Shown here one piece after another: positions 15,891 to 37,646 of a stretch of 64,000 nt of DNA; position 1 is the stretch's first letter, and each line of letters opens with the position of its first letter. The position numbers and the translations under genes were made by a program. The DNA comes from an uncultured Actinomycetes bacterium (GTDB lineage Bacteria > Actinomycetota > Acidimicrobiia > IMCC26256 > DASPTH01), in contig CAWIHV010000004.1 of the NCBI GenBank assembly GCA_963835985.1, forward strand, positions 22,952 to 86,951. Reading direction: 5' to 3'. The notes below the pieces were generated by a model. It did no database searches, was not told the origin of the DNA, and saw only the letters and a program-made list of their open reading frames with translations.

Positions 15891-16151
15891 ATGGCGAACA
15901 TCAAGAGCCAGATCAAGCGGAACCGCTCGAATGAACGGCGGCGCCTCCGCAACCAGGGTGTGCGCTCCGAGCTGAAGACGCGCGTGAAGACCGCGTCCAC
16001 GGCCATCGAGACCGGCGCCGACGACGCCCCCGAGGCCGTCCGCCTTGCGCAGAAGCGCCTCGGCAAGGCCGCGTCGAAGGGCCGCATCCACAAGAACCAG
16101 GCCGCCCGGCGCACCTCCCGCCTCATGAAGAAGGCCGGCACCAACTCCTAG
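15891..16151 (+). CDS. rpsT: 30S ribosomal protein S20
   Basis: ATG at 15891: MANIKSQIKRNRSNERRRLRNQGVRSELKTRVK..., 86 aa. Divergent from lepA as usual. Confidence 0.93.
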   Translation: MANIKSQIKRNRSNERRRLRNQGVRSELKTRVKTASTAIETGADDAPEAVRLAQKRLGKAASKGRIHKNQAARRTSRLMKKAGTNS

Positions 16152-16153
16152 GT

Positions 16154-16205
16154 CGGCAAAGTCACGCGATCTGGCACGTCAGCGTTCCAGATCGCGCAGC
16201 TTTGG
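16154..16205. repeat. Palindromic intergenic element, copy A (CGGCAAAG-N10-TGGCACG-N21-CTTTGG); likely also the rpsT terminator
   Basis: Starts 3 nt after the rpsT stop. Perfect 10-bp inner stem cgcgatctgg (16165-16174) / ccagatcgcg (16187-16196). Outer caaag/ctttg arms are complementary. Same architecture as copies at 34908 and 35923. Confidence 0.7.
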
Positions 16206-16212
16206 GGCTTCG

Positions 16213-16623
16213 CTAGCCGTTCGGCGGCACCATGCAGTCGAACACGTAGGCGGTGTCGAGGAACTCCCACGCTTCGGCGATCTTGCCGTCGCGGACGCGG
16301 AACAGCATGTGGTACGAGCCGTGGTACTCGTTGCCGGCGGTCGTGCGCGCGTGCATCGTGCAGTGCAACGTGACGAGGTCGTCCTCGGCGAGGACGTGGT
16401 CGATGTCCCACGTGCGGTCGGGTTCGTAGACCTCCGTCGACCCGATGAAGAGCGCGTGGACCTGCTCACCCGACAGGTCCTGGGCGGGGAAGCCGCGCTG
16501 GGCCACCGACGTGGGGAGGTGCCAGACCGCGTCGTCGGCGAGGTACGGGATCTTGTCGGGCTGCGCCGCAGCCCAGAACTCGAGCACGAGCTCCTTGTTG
16601 CGCGCGGTGTCGCTCACGACCAC
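16213..16623 (-). CDS. SnoaL-like / NTF2-fold protein
   Basis: 136-aa intact ORF. The NKELVLEFW start, a central hydrophobic core and a DGKIAEAWEFLD ending are typical of the SnoaL/ketosteroid-isomerase-like fold. Confidence 0.7.
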   Translation of the reverse strand: MVVSDTARNKELVLEFWAAAQPDKIPYLADDAVWHLPTSVAQRGFPAQDLSGEQVHALFIGSTEVYEPDRTWDIDHVLAEDDLVTLHCTMHARTTAGNEYHGSYHMLFRVRDGKIAEAWEFLDTAYVFDCMVPPNG

Positions 16624-23897: not shown

Positions 23898-23970
23898 GGG
23901 GCTGTAGCTCAGTTGGTAGAGCACTTCCATGGCATGGAAGGGGTCAGGGGTTCGATTCCCCTCAGCTCCA
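23898..23970 (+). tRNA. tRNA-Ala (anticodon GGC)
   Basis: Hand-folded cloverleaf: acceptor GGGGCTG/CAGCTCC with the G3:U70 Ala identity pair; D arm GCTC-AGTTGGTA-GAGC; anticodon arm CTTCC-ATGGCAT-GGAAG (GGC at 34-36); T arm AGGGG-TTCGATT-CCCCT. CCA is not encoded. Confidence 0.93.
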
Positions 23971-24016
23971 CTCCTCTTCTCCCTCGCTCACCTCCGTTCG
24001 CTCCGTATCAACGGGC

Positions 24017-24040
24017 GAGCACGGGCGGAGCCCGTAGCTC
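24017..24040. terminator. Strong hairpin between tRNA-Ala and the convergent SDR gene
   Basis: gagcacgggc-gga-gcccgtagctc forms a 10-bp stem with one bulged A. Confidence 0.45.
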
Positions 24041-24090: not shown

Positions 24091-25575
24091 TCACTCCGTA
24101 TCAACGGGCGTCTCCTCGCCGGCCAGGGACTCGGCGTCGTGGACGATGCCCCGCAGCAGACCGGGGAACACGAGGGAGTGGAACGGCAACACGCCGTACC
24201 AGTACGCGCGTCCGAACAGGCCCCGGGGCCGGAACCGGGCCGTCTGCACCACGCTGCTGCCACCGGCCTCAGGTTCGATCGTCCACTCGAGCCAGGCTTC
24301 GCCGGGCAACCGCATCTCGGCGTGGAGCGAGAGGCAGCGGTCCTGCTGGACGTCCGTCACCCGCCACCAGTCGAGTGGCTCCCCCACCCGGAGGTGATCG
24401 GGATCGCGACGCCCGCGCCGCAACCCCGGACCACCGACCAACTGGTCGACGATGCCGCGCGCCCGCCAGAGGACGCGGCCGCTGTACCAGCCGCGCGCGC
24501 CGCCGACCCGACAGATCGCCCGCCACACCGAATGGGGATCAGCGATCGTGGTCGTGGCCCGGACGTCGCTCGCGACGGTGCCGCCGGTCCAGTCGGGATC
24601 GGTGGAGCTGGACTGCCACACCGGCGACGCCGCATCGTCGAACTTCGTCGGCACCTTGCCCGACGCGGTGTTGGTGATCGCGAGCCGGATCGCCTCCGCG
24701 AGCGTGAGCCGTTCGAACGGGAAGAGGTGCTCGGCGCGATGATCGGTCACGACCACGCGGTTGACCAACGAATCGACCAGCGGACGCGCGAGTTGTGCGG
24801 GCACCGGCGTCACCAACCCGACCCACAGCGACGAGAGGCGCGGCGACAGCACGGGGACGGGGAGCAGGCGCCGCTTCGGCAGACCCGCGACCTCCGCGTA
24901 GGTGGCCATCATCTCCGCGTACGACAGGACATCGGGGCCGCCGATCTCGAGGACCCCGCCGATCAGCTCCTCGTGCTCGACGACGGCGACGAGGTAGCGC
25001 AGCACGTCGCGGATCGCGATCGGCTGGCACTCGGTGCGCACCCACTTCGGCGTCACCATGACGGGGAGGATCTCGGTGAGATAGCGCAGCATCTCGAAGC
25101 TCGCCGACCCCGACCCGATCACCGCGGCAGCGCGCAGCTCCACGCACTCGACCGGGCCCGCCGCGAGCACGCGCCCGACCTCGTGACGACTCCCGAGGTG
25201 CGCGCTGAGCTCGGTGCGGTCGTCGCCCAGGCCGCCGAGGTAGACGATGCGGTCGACGCCCGATCGTTCCGCGGCCGTGCGGAAGTTCTCGGCGAGCGCG
25301 CGCTCGCGCTCGACCCAGTCGACGCCCTCGCCGATGCTGTGCACCAGGAACACGGCGACGTCGATGTCGGCCATCGCGTCGGACAGGTCGCCGCCGATGT
25401 CGGCCCGCACCACCTCCACGTCGTCCCGCCAGCTCGCGGCGTCGAGCTTGCGCACGTCTCGTGCCGCGCACCGCACACGATGACCTCGGGACAGCAGTTC
25501 GGTGACGAGTCGCCCGCCGACGTATCCCGATGCTCCGGTCACCAGTACGTGCCTCGAGTGCTCGGGATCGTCCAC
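24091..25575 (-). CDS. NAD(P)-binding SDR-family (NmrA/epimerase-like) protein fused to a DUF2867-like C-terminal domain
   Basis: 494 aa. N-terminal HVLVTGASGYVGGRLVTELLSRGHRV Rossmann motif. The C-terminal region (ARGWYSGRVLWRARGIVDQLVGGPGLRRGRRDP...) is typical of the DUF2867 fusion. Confidence 0.85.
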   Translation of the reverse strand: MDDPEHSRHVLVTGASGYVGGRLVTELLSRGHRVRCAARDVRKLDAASWRDDVEVVRADIGGDLSDAMADIDVAVFLVHSIGEGVDWVERERALAENFRTAAERSGVDRIVYLGGLGDDRTELSAHLGSRHEVGRVLAAGPVECVELRAAAVIGSGSASFEMLRYLTEILPVMVTPKWVRTECQPIAIRDVLRYLVAVVEHEELIGGVLEIGGPDVLSYAEMMATYAEVAGLPKRRLLPVPVLSPRLSSLWVGLVTPVPAQLARPLVDSLVNRVVVTDHRAEHLFPFERLTLAEAIRLAITNTASGKVPTKFDDAASPVWQSSSTDPDWTGGTVASDVRATTTIADPHSVWRAICRVGGARGWYSGRVLWRARGIVDQLVGGPGLRRGRRDPDHLRVGEPLDWWRVTDVQQDRCLSLHAEMRLPGEAWLEWTIEPEAGGSSVVQTARFRPRGLFGRAYWYGVLPFHSLVFPGLLRGIVHDAESLAGEETPVDTE

Positions 25576-32115: not shown

Positions 32116-33624
32116 GCCTCGGGCTTGAGGGTCGGGAACAGGATCACCTCACGGATGCTGGTCACGCCGGCGAGGATCATCGTGAGCCGATCGATCCCGA
32201 GCCCCATGCCGCCGGTCGGCGGCAGTCCGAACTCCAACGCCCGCAGGTAGTCCTCGTCGACCGTACCGGCCTCGACATCACCCGCGGCACGTGCCGCGCG
32301 CTTCGGCTTCGAAGCGCGCGCGTTGGTCGATGGGATCGTTGAGCTCGCTGTACGCATTCGCGAGCTCGTTGCCGTTGACGACCACTTCGAACCGTTCGAC
32401 CAGGTTGGGATCGTCGCGATGTGCACGCGCCAACGGCGACGTCTCGCGCGGGTGGTCGAGCACGAACGTGGGTCGCACGAGCTTCGGCTCGACCAGCTCG
32501 TCGTAGGCCTCGTGGGTGAGACGGCCGGCGCCCCATTCGTCCTTGTACGAGAGACCGAGCCCGTCGAGCACCGCGCGTGCTGCCGCGACGTCCATCGAGG
32601 GGTGGAGGTCGACACCGACGTGCTCGCGGATGAGGTCGACCATCGTGGCGCGCGGCCAGGGCTCGGCGAGATCGACGCGCTCGCCGCGCAGCTCGAGCAC
32701 GGTGTCGCCGTTGCGCGAAGCGCGCGCCGCGGTGACGACGAGGCGCTCGGTGAGCTCCATCATGTCGTGGTAGTCGGCGAACGCCTGATAGGCCTCGAGC
32801 ATCGTGAACTCGGGGTTGTGGCTGGTGTCGACGCCCTCGTTGCGGAACACGCGCCCGATCTCGAACACGCGCTCGAAGCCACCGACGACCAGTCGCTTCA
32901 GGTGCAGTTCCGGCGCGATGCGGAGGTAGAGGTCGACGTCGAGCGCGTTGTGGTGCGTGACGAAGGGACGGGCGGTTGCCCCGCCGAGCTCGTGTCCGAG
33001 CACGGGCGTCTCGACCTCGACGAAGCCGGTGTCGGCGAGCTCGCGCCGGATCGCCGCGACCGCGGCGAAGCGGATGGCGAAGACCCGGCGCGCGTCCTCG
33101 TTGACGATGAGGTCGACGTAGCGCTGGCGGAAGCGGGTGTCGACGTCGGAGAGGCCGTGCCACTTGTCGGGCAACGGGCGCAGCGACTTGGCGAGGAGCC
33201 GGAACCCGTCGACCTTCACCGAGAGCTCGCCCTTGCGGGTGGTCATCACCGTCCCGTCGACACCGACCCAGTCACCGAGGTCGAGGGCGTCGAACGAATC
33301 GTGCGCCTCCTCGCCCAGCACGGCGCGGGAGACGAAGAGCTGCACGCTGTCGGACTGGTCGCGCACCGTGGCGAAGGTCAGCTTGCCTTGCCGGCGCAGG
33401 AGGAGGATGCGACCGGCGACCCGAACCCGCACTTCGGTCTCGGTCCCCGGGGGCAGGTCGCCGAAGTCGGCGCGGAGCTCGGCGAGGGTGCGATCGCGGT
33501 CGAAGCGGACCGGGTAGGGGTCGACGCCTCCGGCGCGCAGCTCGTCGAGATCGGCGAGGCGACGGGCCCGTTCGGCCGGGACGTCGGCCGGGACATCGGC
33601 CACGGGCGCGTCGTCGTCGGGCAT
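32112..33624 (-). CDS. lysS: Lysine--tRNA ligase (class II); one extra base near 32295
   Basis: ORFs 32278..33624 and 32112..32615 join as ...[11 protein letters not shown]|[39 protein letters not shown]-fold N-terminus and class II motifs [15 protein letters not shown] and GGMGLGIDR. Corrected length is 503 aa. Confidence 0.92.
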
Positions 33625-33695: not shown

Positions 33696-34904
33696 ATGGA
33701 AGCCGTCATCGTCGCCACCGCCCGCACGCCCATCGGTCGGGCCAACAAGGGGTCGCTCGTCGATCTCCGTCCCGACGACCTCGGGGCCACGATCGTGCAG
33801 GCGCTGCTCGAGAAGGTGCCGAACGTCGATCCCGCGCAGGTCGAGGACGTGATCTGGGGCAACGCCCAGCCGGCCGGCGAGGCGGGCTACAACGTCGCCC
33901 GGGTGACCGCGCTGCTCGCGGGGCTCGAGGGTGCGCCCGGCGTCACCGTCAACCGCTACTGCTCGTCGTCGCTGCAGACCATCCGCATGGCCGCGCACGC
34001 GATCAAGGCCGGCGAGGGCGACGTCTTCGTCGCCGGTGGGGTCGAGACGGTGAGCCGCTTCCGTTCCGGCATGTCCGACGGCGGGCCGGGCACGCACAAC
34101 GCGAAGTTCGCCGACGCCGAAGCGCGCACCGAGTCGCGCACCGGCGGTGGCCAGAGCTCGTGGGAGCCGCTCTCGGGCCTGCCCGACATCTACATCGCGA
34201 TGGGTCAGACCGCCGAGAACGTCGCCGAGTACGCCAAGGTCACGCGCGAGGAGATGGACGAGTTCGCCGCACTGTCACAGCAACGCGCGGTCGAGTCGCA
34301 AGAGAACGGGTTCTTCGAGCGGGAGATCACGCCGGTGACCACGCCCGACGGCACCGTCGTGTCGAAGGACGACGGCCCCCGTCCCGGGACGACGGTCGAG
34401 GGTCTCTCCGCGCTGAAGCCGGTGTTCCGGCCGGACGGCACGGTGACGGCTGGGAACGCGTGCCCGTTGAACGACGGCGCGGCCGCGGTGCTCGTGATGA
34501 GCGAGGCTCGAGCCGAGGCGCTCGGCGTGCAGCCGCTCGCCCGCATCGTCGCCAGCGGCGTGTCCGCGCTCGACCCCGAGATCATGGGGCTCGGCCCCAT
34601 CGACGCGTGCCGTCAGGCAATGGGGCGTGCCGGACTCTCGATCGACGACATCGACCTGGTCGAGATCAACGAGGCGTTCGCCGCGCAGGTGGTGCCGTCG
34701 GCCCGCGAGCTCGGTATCCCGTGGGAGAAGCTGAACGTGCACGGCGGGGCGATTGCGCTCGGCCACCCGTTCGGCATGACCGGCGCCCGCATCATGACCA
34801 CGCTCCTCAACGGTCTCGAGGACGCCGGCGCCCGCTACGGCATGGAGAGCATGTGCGTCGGCGGCGGCCAGGGCATGGCCATGATCGTCGAACGCCTCGC
34901 GTAA
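33696..34904 (+). CDS. Acetyl-CoA C-acetyltransferase (thiolase II)
   Basis: ATG at 33696 with AGGAGA upstream. MEAVIVATARTPIGRA, VNRYCSSSLQ (active-site Cys), NEAFAAQ, GGAIALGHPFGMTGAR, CVGGGQGMA. Confidence 0.93.
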   Translation: MEAVIVATARTPIGRANKGSLVDLRPDDLGATIVQALLEKVPNVDPAQVEDVIWGNAQPAGEAGYNVARVTALLAGLEGAPGVTVNRYCSSSLQTIRMAAHAIKAGEGDVFVAGGVETVSRFRSGMSDGGPGTHNAKFADAEARTESRTGGGQSSWEPLSGLPDIYIAMGQTAENVAEYAKVTREEMDEFAALSQQRAVESQENGFFEREITPVTTPDGTVVSKDDGPRPGTTVEGLSALKPVFRPDGTVTAGNACPLNDGAAAVLVMSEARAEALGVQPLARIVASGVSALDPEIMGLGPIDACRQAMGRAGLSIDDIDLVEINEAFAAQVVPSARELGIPWEKLNVHGGAIALGHPFGMTGARIMTTLLNGLEDAGARYGMESMCVGGGQGMAMIVERLA

Positions 34905-34907
34905 GCA

Positions 34908-34959
34908 CCGCAAAGCCGCGCGGTTTGGCACGCAAGCGTGTCATTCCGCGCACCTTTGG
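34908..34959. repeat. Palindromic intergenic element, copy C (CCGCAAAG-N10-TGGCACG-N21-CTTTGG)
   Basis: Starts 4 nt after the thiolase stop and overlaps roughly the last 6 codons of the convergent DUF559 gene. Same spacing as copy A. Inner stem cgcgg-tt-tgg / tca-tt-ccgcg. Confidence 0.65.
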
Positions 34960-35852
34960 CCGAGCACGGCGAGCGCGATCGGAGCGAAGGTGCGATCCCG
35001 ATCGCGCAGCATGGTCGCCGTGACACGGAACATGCTCCACCCAGCGGCGACGAAGTCGTTCTGACGTGCTCGGTCGTCGTCGAACACCCGCCGGGTCGAA
35101 TGCGGCACGAAGCCGTCGAACTCGATCGCGACCTTGACGTCCGGCCACGCGAGATCGACGTAGCGCACGCGGCCTCCGACGCCCACTCGGTGGTTCAGGC
35201 AGGGTTCGGGGAGTCCGTAGCTCCGCACCGCCCGCAACACCTTGGCTTCCCACACGTTGGCCGCCCGGTGGAGCCCCGGCCCACGAGTCGCGAGCAACTC
35301 GAGGACGAGCGCGCACCCGCTCCGGCGCGGGGCCCACAGCGATTCGGCACGGTTGCGGAGCCGATCGATGGTGACGAGTCGCCGGACGATCGCGGTGTCG
35401 ACCATGTCCTCGAAAGGTGCGCGGGGTAGTCGACCGCCGAGGTCGACGAGCGTGCGCGCGACCGTCGTAGCGCGGATGCCGTCGACGTCGAGGTAGTCGA
35501 CCGGGTCGACTTCACAGCTCGTGTGGAGCACCGCGTCGTAGCGGCGCCGCGGCGCTCGAACCACGAGGATCTCGGGCGCGGGAGGTGGACCCGTGAGCCC
35601 GTGCAGTGCGGCCGCGGCGAGGCCTGCCGACACTCCGCCCGTTGCCAGGACGAGCGCCATCTGGCGTTGTCGCCAGTCGATCGGCCTCGACGCGGCGACG
35701 CGATACACACGGGGCACGATCTCCTCCCACACCCGTCGCTCGAGGAGACGCCGCACCAATGGTCGGGTGAAGCCGCACTCCAGCACTTGGGGCAGAGCAA
35801 AGACCCCATGCTGGCGACGGGCAATGATGTTGAGTTGGCGTTCCGGTGACAT
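34941..35852 (-). CDS. AbiEi-like N-terminal domain + DUF559 (endonuclease-like) protein
   Basis: From the ATG at 35852 (MSPERQLNIIARRQHGVFALPQVLECGFTRPLVRRLLERRVWEEIVPRVYRV). C-terminal VDLAWPDVKVAIEFDGFVPHSTRRVFDDDRARQNDFVAAGWSMFRVT is the DUF559/Vsr-like motif. Confidence 0.8.
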   Translation of the reverse strand: MSPERQLNIIARRQHGVFALPQVLECGFTRPLVRRLLERRVWEEIVPRVYRVAASRPIDWRQRQMALVLATGGVSAGLAAAALHGLTGPPPAPEILVVRAPRRRYDAVLHTSCEVDPVDYLDVDGIRATTVARTLVDLGGRLPRAPFEDMVDTAIVRRLVTIDRLRNRAESLWAPRRSGCALVLELLATRGPGLHRAANVWEAKVLRAVRSYGLPEPCLNHRVGVGGRVRYVDLAWPDVKVAIEFDGFVPHSTRRVFDDDRARQNDFVAAGWSMFRVTATMLRDRDRTFAPIALAVLGQRCAE

Positions 35853-35922
35853 TGCGACTCCCGCGACGACTGTGCCGGGGAAGCCATTGCCATGGTCGCG
35901 CCGAGCTACGACAACCAAACCG

Positions 35923-35975
35923 CGGCAAAGTCAGCGCGTCTTGACACGCACACGTTCCAGCACGCGAGGCTTTGG
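35923..35975. repeat. Palindromic intergenic element, copy B (CGGCAAAG-N11-TGACACG-N21-CTTTGG)
   Basis: Lies in the divergent DUF559/mscL spacer, in the same orientation as copies A and C. Its first 11 nt (cggcaaagtca) are identical to copy A. The inner stem keeps 8 of 10 pairs. Confidence 0.65.
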
Positions 35976-36010
35976 CCGTCAGACGGTCGGAGTCGACGAG
36001 GAGGAGCGAG

Positions 36011-36394
36011 ATGCTGGCGGACTTCCGGAAGTTCATCATGCGCGGGAACGTGCTCGATCTGGCGGTGGCGGTGGTCATCGGCGTGGCGTTCAACGCGGTG
36101 GTCACGTCGCTGGTCAACGACGTGATCATGCAGATCATCGCGGCCATCGTGGGCAAGCCGAACTTCAACGACCTCACCTTCACGATCGGTGAAGGCGTGA
36201 TCTACTACGGCCGGTTCCTCACCGCGCTCATCAACTTCCTGATCATCGCGGCGACGTTGTTCGTGATCATCCGGGCCTTCGAAGAGCTGCAGAAGCGGCG
36301 CAAGAGCGCCGGCGAGGACGTCGACGAGGACAAGAGCGACGAGGTCGTCCTCCTCAGCGAGATCCGCGACCTGCTGGCGCAGCGTCAGGTGTAA
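36011..36394 (+). CDS. mscL: Large-conductance mechanosensitive channel MscL
   Basis: ATG at 36011 after GAGGAGGAG. MLADFRKFIMRGNVLDLAVAVVIGVAFNAVVTSLVNDVIM. 127 aa. Confidence 0.93.
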   Translation: MLADFRKFIMRGNVLDLAVAVVIGVAFNAVVTSLVNDVIMQIIAAIVGKPNFNDLTFTIGEGVIYYGRFLTALINFLIIAATLFVIIRAFEELQKRRKSAGEDVDEDKSDEVVLLSEIRDLLAQRQV

Positions 36395-36398
36395 CCGC

Positions 36399-37646
36399 TC
36401 AGCTCAGCTCGAACGCCGGGTTGAGGCACTGGACGACCTCGGCCGGCGGGACGTCGAACATCTTGAGGTACGCCGGAAGCTGTCCCTGCACGGTGGCCTT
36501 GGTGTAGAGCACCTGGACCACGTCGTCGTCACCCGCGCCTTCGATCGGGTACGTCCCGACCAGCTGCACCCCGGTGATGTCGAGCTTCAGGCTCGTGATC
36601 TGGGGCTTGATCGACTGCAGGAGCTGCTTGGCCTCGAAGCGCGACTGCTGCTGCGTGGTGCGCTTTCCCGCCGGCGCGGTCGTGGGCGGCGCGGTCGTCG
36701 TCGTGGGCTCCTCGCCCCCCGGGACCGTCGTGGTGGTCGTGCTCGTCGTCGTGGTGGTGGTGTCGGGTGGATCGGTGGGCGGCGTGTTGCACGTGGGCGT
36801 GCCCGTCGGATGCTCGCCGGTCTCGCCGTTGTTGACGGCCCACGTGACCAACAGGTCGTGGCCCGGCGTGTAGTTCACGACGACGCGCTCGTCGTCGGGA
36901 ACCCCGCGGTTGCTGTCGCCGATGCGCTGGAGCGCCTTGGCCTGCACCTTCGCCGCGGCCTCCTGCGGGGTCGTGGTGGTGGGCGGCGGCTTGGTGGTGG
37001 TCGCCGGCGCCGTGGTGGGAGCGACGCTCGTCGGCGGCGGCACGACCGTGGTCGGCGGTGCGGTGGGCGGGGCGGTGGGCGGTTCGGTGGGCGGCGTGGT
37101 CGTGGGCGCCTCGGTGGGCGGCGGAGGGATCACCGTGATGGTGGGCGGCGGGGCGGTGGTGGTCGCCGGCGCATGCGTGGTGGTCGTGGCCGCGGGTGCC
37201 GTCGTCGACGTCGTCGTCGGGAGCGCGACGGTGCTGGACGGCGGCTGCGTGGGGATCGCGACGTTGTCGTTCGACGAGTCGCCGTCGCGCAGCGCGAGGA
37301 AGGCGATGCCGCCGATGATCCAGAGCGCCAGCACCGCTCCCGCGACGATCCGAGCCGCGGTGACGTACTGCGTGCCGGTGCGCTCACCTCGGGATCGACG
37401 GATGAGATCCGCGGCCCGCGCCGCCAGGACGAAGGCGACGATCGTGCCGATGAGCGGGATGACGATGCTGACGACGGCCCAGACCAGCGCCGCGATCGCG
37501 AACGGCTCCGTGCGCGCCTGACCCCAGCCGCCCGCCCCTCCGGAACCGCCCGCACCCGTGGGTTCCGGCTCGGGTCCGACCGGCACCGCGCTCGTCTCGT
37601 CGGGGTTCCAGGCGTTGGGATCCTGGGGCGGCTCGGAAGCGGACAT
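36399..37646 (-). CDS. Membrane-anchored Pro/Thr-rich protein (DUF4190-like N-terminus, globular C-terminal domain)
   Basis: 415 aa. Two TM helices (FAIAALVWAVVSIVIPLIGTIVAFVLA and IVAGAVLALWIIGGIAFLAL), then long PT-rich tracts (PPTTTTP, TTTTTTSTTTTT) around two short non-repetitive segments. Confidence 0.75.
   Translation of the reverse strand: MSASEPPQDPNAWNPDETSAVPVGPEPEPTGAGGSGGAGGWGQARTEPFAIAALVWAVVSIVIPLIGTIVAFVLAARAADLIRRSRGERTGTQYVTAARIVAGAVLALWIIGGIAFLALRDGDSSNDNVAIPTQPPSSTVALPTTTSTTAPAATTTTHAPATTTAPPPTITVIPPPPTEAPTTTPPTEPPTAPPTAPPTTVVPPPTSVAPTTAPATTTKPPPTTTTPQEAAAKVQAKALQRIGDSNRGVPDDERVVVNYTPGHDLLVTWAVNNGETGEHPTGTPTCNTPPTDPPDTTTTTTSTTTTTVPGGEEPTTTTAPPTTAPAGKRTTQQQSRFEAKQLLQSIKPQITSLKLDITGVQLVGTYPIEGAGDDDVVQVLYTKATVQGQLPAYLKMFDVPPAEVVQCLNPAFELS

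What the first reader, a model, noticed from the sequence alone, without database searches (positions are those of the whole stretch)
16154..16205. Family of ~52-nt imperfect-palindromic intergenic elements with conserved ends and loop and a variable but still-pairing stem
Three intergenic sites have the same architecture on the + strand: C(G/C)GCAAAG, 10-11 nt, TG(G/A)CACG, 21 nt, CTTTGG.
- Copy A is at 16154-16205, 3 nt after the rpsT stop.
- Copy C is at 34908-34959, 4 nt after the thiolase stop.
- Copy B is at 35923-35975, in the DUF559/mscL divergent spacer.

The AT-containing end motifs CAAAG/CTTTG are rare in this GC-rich DNA and are complementary to each other.

An inner stem is kept with different sequences. 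Copy A has cgcgatctgg/ccagatcgcg (perfect 10 bp). Copy C has cgcgg-tt-tgg/tca-tt-ccgcg. Copy B keeps 8 of 10 pairs. This looks like compensatory change around a conserved loop.

In my hand alignment, 13 of 21 positions of the N21 segment match in both A-B and A-C.

No annotated gene or known motif I recognise explains this. It could be a REP/MITE-like element, a protein-binding site, or a structured RNA or terminator module.
Basis: seen in the sequence. Interest (0 to 1): 0.68.

Follow-up and report, generated by a model that had tools for sequence, protein, structure and literature searches.

The report
Palindromic DNA sites bracketing a nuclease gene
The three 52-base elements are real copies of a small family of DNA palindromes, and they are most likely the docking sites of a DNA-binding nuclease whose gene two of them bracket, not a structured RNA.

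Summary

Copies C and B bracket one gene (34941-35852, minus strand). Its protein is a full AbiEi-like DNA-binding module fused to a Vsr/EDxHD-type nuclease.

In all 7 related uncultured Acidimicrobiia genomes with this gene beside the same thiolase, it is bracketed by a pair of about 50-bp palindromes. The palindrome sequence differs among genomes. The nuclease is 56-75% identical across them, against 91-95% for the thiolase.

Intact copies elsewhere on the same contig match that contig's flanks in 3 of 3 cases.

Each element is two 22-24-bp arms around a 4-bp centre. This is the geometry of the known AbiEi operator.

Conserved blocks are separated by variable triplets that are often unpaired, so the "compensating stem" reading fails. 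None is a canonical terminator.

Best reading (about 0.5): these are cognate binding, perhaps cleavage, sites of the adjacent nuclease, arranged like a REP/RAYT pair but with a different enzyme. The main rival is generic hairpins at gene 3' ends.

The parts
16154..16205 (.). Copy A. A dispersed palindrome between the convergent rpsT and a SnoaL-like gene. Its half-sites are CAAAG-TCA-CGCG-ATC-TGGCACG and CAAAG-CTG-CGCG-ATC-TGGAACG.
   Evidence: (72.9 bits). As RNA it folds at -32.3 kcal/mol, z = -5.5. Its closest relatives are at other loci in other genomes: L127 after smpB (94% over 33 nt) and L126 (95% over 22 nt).
34908..34959 (.). Copy C. The palindrome at the 3' end of the nuclease gene, 4 nt after the convergent thiolase stop. 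It overlaps the nuclease stop codon (34941-34943) and its last six codons.
   Evidence: (70.3 bits).
35923..35975 (.). Copy B. The palindrome upstream of the nuclease gene, 70 nt before its ATG and 36 nt before the mscL ATG. It has a 1-nt insertion in the left arm.
   Evidence: (66.8 bits). Its ortholog L132 9875-9928 is 88.6% identical over 35 nt.
34941..35852 (-). Gene for a 303-aa protein: a full AbiEi-like module (winged helix plus C-terminal domain) fused to a Vsr/EDxHD-type nuclease domain.
   Evidence: - Identical to P0241.
- PADLOC AbiEi, E = 4.6e-21, residues 4-171.
- Pfam MTES_1575, 30.6 bits, below the 38.2 cut-off.
- AlphaFold2 pLDDT 92.
- Foldseek: 6y8q AbiEi, E = 1.2e-5; 3r3p I-Bth0305I, TM 0.75; 1cw0 Vsr.
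- Invariant E202, D233, D246, H251, D260.
35853..35922 (-). Leader and probable promoter of the nuclease gene. It carries the conserved block GTC(A/G)(C/T)ACC-N3-GCGCGA-N3-T, then CTTCCCC, which can pair with the GGGAG ribosome-binding site.
   Evidence: Alignment of 7 loci. Folds. Promoter function is inferred; the sigma-70 scan found nothing.
15891..16151 (+). rpsT (context). Copy A follows its stop codon.
   Evidence: Ribosomal_S20p in relatives.
33696..34904 (+). Thiolase (context). It is the conserved neighbour of the cassette.
   Evidence: P0121, 100% identical.
36012..36394 (+). mscL (context). It runs divergently from the nuclease gene. It is present in only some relatives.

Best explanation
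The elements are double-stranded DNA pseudo-palindromes. Each has two arms of 22-24 bp around a 4-bp centre. The half-site is CAAAG-N3-CGCG-N3-TG(G/A)(C/A)ACG.

I infer that they are the cognate sites of the protein encoded between copies B and C, an AbiEi-type DNA binder fused to a Vsr/EDxHD-type nuclease. One protein molecule would sit on each arm, bringing the two nuclease domains over the centre.

Copy B abuts the gene's own promoter and overlaps the region just upstream of mscL, so binding there would give autoregulation. Copy C and the dispersed copy A would be further binding, and possibly cleavage, sites.

The gene with its two flanking palindromes behaves as a fast-evolving, sometimes absent cassette. 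Its palindrome sequence changes together with the protein allele. The arrangement resembles a REP/RAYT unit or a free-standing homing-endonuclease gene.

**Shown:** the repeat family, the bracketing in seven genomes, the type matching, the geometry, and the protein fold.

**Inferred:** binding, cleavage, regulation, and any role of the protein in spreading the copies.
For: 1. **Bracketing.** In 7 of 7 distinct genomes with the gene beside the thiolase (window, L128, L130, L131, L132, L135, L137), a palindrome of about 50 bp ends 72-77 nt upstream of the called start in the four loci where the start is called (70 nt in the window). A second palindrome overlaps the stop codon.

2. **Types differ and track protein clades.**
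   - CAAAG type: window and L132, proteins 74.6% identical.
   - CAAAAGGTAGCGA type: L128 and L131, proteins 67.8% identical.
   - Other variants: L130, L135, L137.
   - Between groups the protein is 56-65% identical, against 91-95% for the thiolase, and the thiolase similarities group the genomes differently.

3. **Dispersed copies match their own contig's flanks.**
   - Window copy A is the CAAAG type.
   - L122 3262-3309 matches the L128 flanks (contig_36063).
   - L121 4364-4411 is 92% identical over 50 nt to L131_up (contig_47957). The cross-genome figure is 83-85%.
   - The same leuS-comEA spacer is empty in the window.
   - The only mismatched copy (L122, after rpsT) is degenerate.

4. 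**Geometry fits known relatives.**
   - AbiEi binds two 23-bp inverted repeats 3 bp apart in its own promoter (PMC7319586).
   - I-Bth0305I, the closest solved nuclease domain, is a homodimer that footprints about 60 bp of pseudo-palindromic DNA (PMC3239194).

5. **Protein.** The fold and the invariant catalytic residues support an active nuclease.

6. **Block pattern.** Conserved blocks are separated by non-compensating spacers, and half-sites occur only in pairs.
Against: - There is no binding or cleavage data.
- Every dispersed copy lies 2-28 nt after a stop codon (rpsT, leuS, smpB, a thiolase-like gene). That position is typical of terminator or REP hairpins and odd for operators.
- Copy B ends 70 nt from the start codon rather than clearly over a promoter.
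- Within the window, A, B and C do not detectably match each other by short blast. B is closer to its L132 ortholog than to C, so within-genome homogenisation is not general.
- The two flanks in L137 and L135 share only some blocks.
- A 51%-identical homolog at another locus (L136) has no upstream palindrome.
- Only about 280 kb was sampled, so copy number per genome is unknown.
Confidence: 0.5

Rival explanations
1. The elements are generic hairpins at gene 3' ends that act in RNA, as bidirectional terminators or 3'-end stabilisers like REP elements. The nuclease gene merely sits between two of them.
For: - All dispersed copies lie 2-28 nt after a stop codon.
- A and C sit between convergent genes.
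- Predicted hairpins are strong: -32.3 kcal/mol, z = -5.5 for A.
- Two types have A-rich and T-rich ends around a GC-rich stem, as bidirectional terminators do.
- Overall pairing exceeds shuffles: 86% against 81%, 0 of 500.
Against: - None has a T-run, and none passes the terminator scan.
- The variable triplets in mid-stem are often unpaired.
- There is no strand bias in fold energy.
- Copy B sits between divergent gene starts, where there is nothing to terminate.
- This reading does not explain why both flanks and the dispersed copies change type together with the protein allele.
- An ordinary GC-only hairpin at the lysS 3' end looks quite different.
Confidence: 0.25
2. The elements are a miniature mobile element (REP/MITE-like) spread by some other enzyme encoded elsewhere in the genome. 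The flanks of the nuclease gene are just two tolerated insertion sites inherited from an ancestor.
For: - Near-identical copies occur at unrelated loci in different genomes (A against L127 94%, against L126 95%).
- The rpsT-downstream copy is present, degenerate or absent at the orthologous site in three relatives.
- 8 of the 11 longest palindromes in 281 kb belong to the family.
Against: - No transposase was seen next to any copy, apart from an unrelated IS in L130.
- Both flanks are occupied in 7 of 7 genomes despite type turnover.
- The geometry matches the adjacent protein's family (PMC7319586).
- No target-site duplications were identified.
Confidence: 0.15
3. The pair of palindromes are recombination sites of a gene cassette, like integron attC sites. 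This would explain the gain, loss and exchange of the nuclease gene.
For: - The gene is bracketed by two similar imperfect palindromes.
- L129 lacks the cassette while L130, with a 98.8% identical thiolase, has it.
- The protein similarities do not group the genomes as the thiolase similarities do.
Against: - The ends (GCAAAG/CTTTGG) do not fit the attC core sites RYYYAAC/GTTRRRY (read directly).
- No integrase appears in any neighbourhood table.
- Solo copies sit at housekeeping genes.
- The gene has its own conserved leader.
Confidence: 0.05

Closest known systems
AbiEi operator (type IV toxin-antitoxin AbiE of Streptococcus agalactiae; Rv2827c of M. tuberculosis)
   Same: Both are two inverted repeats of about 23 bp with a short gap, lying upstream of an AbiEi-family gene. 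One monomer binds per repeat, and binding is specific to the cognate sequence (PMC7319586). The protein here has the whole AbiEi fold.
   Different: - There is no AbiEii/DUF1814 toxin partner in any neighbourhood.
- The AbiEi module is fused to a nuclease.
- A second copy lies at the gene's 3' end, and further copies lie at unrelated genes.
- The site abuts rather than clearly overlaps the presumed promoter.
REP/REPIN elements with their RAYT gene (REPtron)
   Same: A single-copy gene that stays at one chromosomal position is bracketed by the same palindromes that are dispersed elsewhere outside genes, mostly at 3' ends. Repeat type and gene co-vary between genomes (PMC3733652, PMC3337134).
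   Different: - The enzyme is not a HUH tyrosine transposase.
- The copy number seen is low (1-2 dispersed copies per 40-60 kb).
- The CAAAG type lacks the GTAG or CGTC end tag.
- Transposition is not shown.
EDxHD (Vsr-like) homing endonuclease I-Bth0305I
   Same: Both have an N-terminal DNA-binding region plus a C-terminal Vsr-like nuclease. The catalytic residues have the same spacing. I-Bth0305I is a homodimer on a pseudo-palindromic site of about 60 bp (PMC3239194). The gene here is present in some close relatives and absent in others.
   Different: - The gene is not in an intron or intein.
- The DNA-binding part is AbiEi-like, not NUMOD.
- The gene is flanked by whole palindromes, not by the two halves of a split target.
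Bidirectional intrinsic terminators
   Same: These are hairpins between convergent genes. In two types, A-rich and T-rich tracts flank the stem.
   Different: There is no T-run. The elements have long 22-bp arms with conserved AT-containing blocks. One copy sits in a divergent promoter region.

Membership tests
Any Rfam RNA family | A match to a curated covariance model | tested here: not met
   At gathering threshold, only tRNA-Ala was found in the window. Nothing up to E = 5 was found over 34700-36200.
Structured RNA or hairpin under selection for pairing | Variable stem positions keep pairing through compensatory change | tested here: not met
   The variable triplet is unpaired in 3-6 of 10 copies. 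Pairing lies in invariant blocks. There is no strand bias in energy.
Canonical intrinsic terminator | A GC-rich stem-loop followed directly by a T-run | tested here: not met
   None of the three sites is reported by the scans. The tails are CTTTGG.
REP/REPIN-RAYT | The associated gene is bracketed by the same palindromes that are dispersed in the genome | tested here: met
   on three contigs.
REP/REPIN-RAYT | The associated gene encodes a HUH tyrosine transposase (IS200/IS605-like) | tested here: not met
   The protein is AbiEi-like plus a Vsr-like nuclease.
REP/REPIN-RAYT | Tens to hundreds of copies per genome | not testable with these tools
   Only 64 kb of the 258-kb source contig and about 20-kb pieces of relatives were available.
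REP/REPIN-RAYT | A GTAG or CGTC tetranucleotide at one end | tested here: inconclusive
   The CAAAG type has neither. The CAAAAGGTAGCGA type contains GTAG/CTAC inside its arms (PMC3733652).
AbiEi operator | Two inverted repeats of about 23 bp separated by a few bp | tested here: met
   The arms are 22-24 bp and the centre is 4 bp. AbiEi uses 23 + 3 + 23 (PMC7319586).
AbiEi operator | Lies in the promoter of an AbiEi-family gene | tested here: inconclusive
   Copy B ends 70 nt before the ATG and abuts a conserved promoter-like block. No transcription start site is known.
AbiEi operator | Bound by the encoded protein | not testable with these tools
   This needs a gel-shift or footprinting experiment.
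[quoted passage not shown] | An adjacent AbiEii (DUF1814 nucleotidyltransferase) toxin gene | tested here: not met
   No such gene appears in the neighbourhood tables of 9 loci.
EDxHD homing endonuclease | A Vsr-like catalytic fold with conserved E, D, x, H, D | tested here: met
   3r3p gives TM 0.74-0.75 and probability 1.00. Invariant E202, D233, D246, H251, D260 have the spacing of E170, D196, N208, H213, D222 (PMC3239194). The residue mapping is by spacing, not by superposition.
EDxHD homing endonuclease | Cuts the allele that lacks the gene and is copied into it | not testable with these tools
   Only presence or absence among close relatives is seen: L129 against L130, thiolase 98.8% identical.
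Integron attC site | Core sites RYYYAAC and GTTRRRY at the ends, and an integrase nearby | tested here: not met
   The ends are GCAAAG/CTTTGG. No integrase is in the neighbourhood tables.

The most novel reading that the evidence does not exclude
An actinobacterial counterpart of the REP/RAYT partnership, in which the partner enzyme is an AbiEi-Vsr (EDxHD-type) nuclease rather than a HUH transposase. The single-copy gene would recognise, maintain and occasionally spread its own family of 52-bp palindromes, and protein and palindromes would diversify together. The protein architecture is widespread: 2,846 clusters at 50% identity with E <= 1e-30. A large family of uncharacterised 'DUF559 / AbiEi domain' proteins could therefore work this way.
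Probability: 0.25. Interest if true: 0.85.

Novelty: new variant of a known kind. Interest (0 to 1): 0.6.

Why it matters
AbiEi-DUF559 fusion proteins are common in public data and have no known function. A full-text search found no paper that mentions both AbiEi and DUF559.

This locus gives such a protein a concrete candidate DNA target. That makes its function directly testable by gel shift and cleavage assays on a defined 52-bp site.

If the protein also maintains the dispersed copies, it would be a second, mechanistically different route to REP-like repeats. It would also be in a phylum absent from the one REP survey I searched (PMC3733652).

If instead the elements prove to be plain 3' hairpins, the locus is still a clear case of a fast-evolving, sometimes absent nuclease cassette at a fixed chromosomal site.

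Tried and rejected
- **Genome scan.** None has the family's hairpin, CGCG blocks or fold energy.
- **Metagenome scan.** A stricter pattern gave only four loci. Two are true members (L126, L127). Two are a related but distinct perfect palindrome (L124, L125).
- **rpsT look-up.** Exact look-up of the window's rpsT protein found nothing.
- **Sigma-54 idea.** I considered that TGGCACG is the -24 box of a sigma-54 promoter. I rejected it from the sequence: no TTGC follows at the required spacing on either strand.
- **Strand-specific RNA.** Rejected; energies of the two strands are similar and the sign varies.
- **Generality beyond this lineage.** No relative was found in viral contigs and essentially none on plasmids. 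The contig look-ups were exhausted.
- **Sequence search of solved structures.** Neither the single protein nor the profile gave a meaningful match. Only the fold comparison worked.
- **L129 empty site.** L129 lacks the gene and could not be aligned well enough to define insertion boundaries.

Full report
**Observation.** The three sites are as described.
The looser CAAAG-N25-55-CTTTG also finds only these three.
- The 13/21 counts are right.
- A covariance model built from the copies and run without filters finds no fourth copy in the 64 kb.
- No isolated half-sites exist.
- Rfam has nothing at gathering threshold except tRNA-Ala, and nothing up to E = 5 around copies B and C.

**Context in the window.**
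- Copy A lies between the convergent rpsT (15891-16151, plus strand) and a SnoaL-like gene (16213-16623, minus strand).
- Copy C lies between the convergent thiolase (stop at 34904) and a minus-strand ORF, 34941-35852. C overlaps that ORF's stop codon and last six codons.
- Copy B lies 70 nt upstream of the same ORF's ATG and 36 nt upstream of the divergent mscL.
- So C and B bracket one gene.

**Source organism.** LepA and thiolase homologs place the window in an uncultured Acidimicrobiia lineage that is abundant in metagenomes. A contig of 258 kb carries identical thiolase and nuclease proteins (P0121, P0241).

**The bracketed gene.**
- PADLOC matches AbiEi over residues 4-171 (E = 4.6e-21).
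- Pfam gives a sub-threshold MTES_1575 (Vsr-type nuclease) match.
- An AlphaFold2 model from 53 homologs has mean pLDDT 92.
- Foldseek against the PDB ranks full-length AbiEi first (6y8q, E = 1.2e-5, 201 aligned columns). Next comes the catalytic domain of the homing endonuclease I-Bth0305I (3r3p, TM 0.75). Vsr itself ranks lower.
- Five invariant residues (E202, D233, D246, H251, D260) have the same spacing as the catalytic E170, D196, N208, H213, D222 of I-Bth0305I (PMC3239194). This mapping is by spacing only.
- No AbiEii toxin gene is nearby, so this is not a type IV toxin-antitoxin pair.
- The fused architecture is common: 2,846 clusters at 50% identity with E <= 1e-30, most covering the full length.

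**Comparative evidence at the cassette.**
- I fetched the thiolase or nuclease locus from eight further contigs.
- In all seven distinct genomes that carry the gene at this site, a palindrome of about 50 bp ends 72-77 nt upstream of the called start in the four loci where the start is called (70 nt in the window). A second palindrome overlaps the stop codon.
- The sequences fall into types:
  - CAAAG-N3-CGCG... in the window and L132.
  - CAAAAGGTAGCGA... in L128 and L131.
  - CCGTTC-N3-CGCGC... in L130.
  - Further variants in L135 and L137.
- All types keep the plan of an outer 5-6-mer, N3, a CGCG-like core and an inner segment of about 10 nt.
- The nuclease proteins are 56-75% identical, and lowest in the N-terminal 100 residues. 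The adjacent thiolases are 91-95% identical, and the thiolase similarities group the genomes differently.
- L129, whose thiolase is 98.8% identical to that of L130, lacks the gene and has no clear palindrome.
- A 51%-identical homolog at another locus (L136) has only a downstream hairpin of unrelated sequence.

**Dispersed copies.**
- Copy A's closest relatives are at other loci in other genomes. One is after smpB and before the tmRNA gene in L127 (94% over 33 nt). Another is after a thiolase-like gene in L126 (95% over 22 nt).
- At the orthologous rpsT site the element is degenerate in L122 and absent in L121 and L123.
- On the two contigs whose cassette is the GGTAGCGA type, the leuS-comEA spacer holds a palindrome of that same type, down to the tip. 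The tip is GTCTCA in contig_36063 and GTTTCAGA in contig_47957.
- L121 is 92% identical over 50 nt to its own contig's flank, against 83-85% across genomes.
- The same spacer is empty in the window.
- Thus 3 of 3 intact dispersed copies match their contig's cassette type. The one mismatch is decayed.
- Of the 11 longest palindromes in 281 kb, 8 belong to this family.
- Every dispersed copy lies 2-28 nt after a stop codon.

**Hairpin or duplex site?**
- On 10 CAAAG-type copies aligned without reference to structure, 86% of cells pair against 81% in shuffles (0 of 500). However, the pairs that never vary are the conserved blocks.
- The variable triplet is unpaired in 6, 3 and 5 of 10 copies.
- Fold energies of the two strands are similar, with no consistent sign.
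- None of the three copies passes a terminator scan.
- Conserved symmetric blocks at fixed spacing with free spacers are what a dimeric DNA-binding protein would leave.
- The geometry equals the AbiEi operator: two 23-bp repeats 3 bp apart, one monomer each, specific to the cognate sequence (PMC7319586). It also fits the pseudo-palindromic footprint of about 60 bp of homodimeric I-Bth0305I (PMC3239194).

**Conclusion.**
- The best-supported reading is that these are cognate DNA sites of the adjacent AbiEi-Vsr nuclease, in an arrangement that works like a REP/RAYT unit or a free-standing homing-endonuclease cassette.
- It is not a member of either family. The enzyme is not a HUH transposase, and the gene is not in an intron or intein.
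- Binding, cleavage, autoregulation and any role in spreading copies are inferred.
- The position of every dispersed copy just after a stop codon keeps the terminator/REP-hairpin rival alive. The two readings are not exclusive.
- I put 0.5 on the protein-site reading, 0.25 on generic 3' hairpins, 0.15 on a repeat spread by another enzyme, and 0.05 on cassette recombination sites.

Noticed in passing
window 24001-24017 and 24094-24110: An exact 17-nt direct repeat (CTCCGTATCAACGGGCG) occurs twice, starting 30 nt downstream of tRNA-Ala(GGC) at 23898-23971. Shuffles give 0 matches. It could be the remnant attachment sites of an integrated element.
   Followed up: partly
window 35853-35922 (minus strand); L130-L137 equivalents: The nuclease gene's leader has a conserved block GTC(A/G)(C/T)ACC-N3-GCGCGA-N3-T. 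It is also present in the L136 homolog, which lacks the upstream palindrome. A CTTCCCC stretch is predicted to pair with the GGGAG ribosome-binding site.
   Followed up: partly
window 34941-34959; L128 11271-11282; L130 11220-11264; L137 10886-10936: The C-terminal tail of the nuclease is encoded by the downstream palindrome. It varies in length because the stop codon falls inside the palindrome or at its far end.
   Followed up: partly
L124 1475-1526; L125 12739-12790: Two perfect 24-bp-arm palindromes come from one assembly (ERZ1034920, about 65% GC). They share CAAAG...TGGCACG/CGTGCCA...CTTTG with the window family but have a different middle. They differ from each other by a fully compensated G:C to A:T change. 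No nuclease homolog lies in the 14 kb held.
   Followed up: partly
L130 12283-12310 and 12470-13624; L129 11320-11346: A DDE_Tnp_1 insertion sequence sits next to the cassette in L130. It is preceded by a duplicated copy of the 3' end of the neighbouring 405-aa gene.
   Followed up: no
window 36012-36394; L129, L130, L131, L132: mscL is present beside the cassette in the window, L128, L135 and L137. It is missing from that position in L129, L130, L131 and L132. This spot is a small variable region.
   Followed up: no
window 32283-32328: A GC-only hairpin sits at the 3' end of lysS. It was the best non-family hit of the model, at 19.7 bits. It looks like an ordinary terminator-type hairpin and makes a useful contrast to the family.
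   Followed up: no
L122 21586-21632: An unrelated long palindrome (GGGGTCGAAGTTGCGGCA-GAG-TGCCGCAAGTTCGACGC) lies between an alcohol-dehydrogenase-like gene and a META-domain gene.
   Followed up: no
window 36399-37646 (minus strand): A 415-aa ORF has long Pro/Thr-rich low-complexity stretches and N-terminal hydrophobic segments. It is conserved as the cassette's neighbour in relatives and has no Pfam hit there.
   Followed up: no
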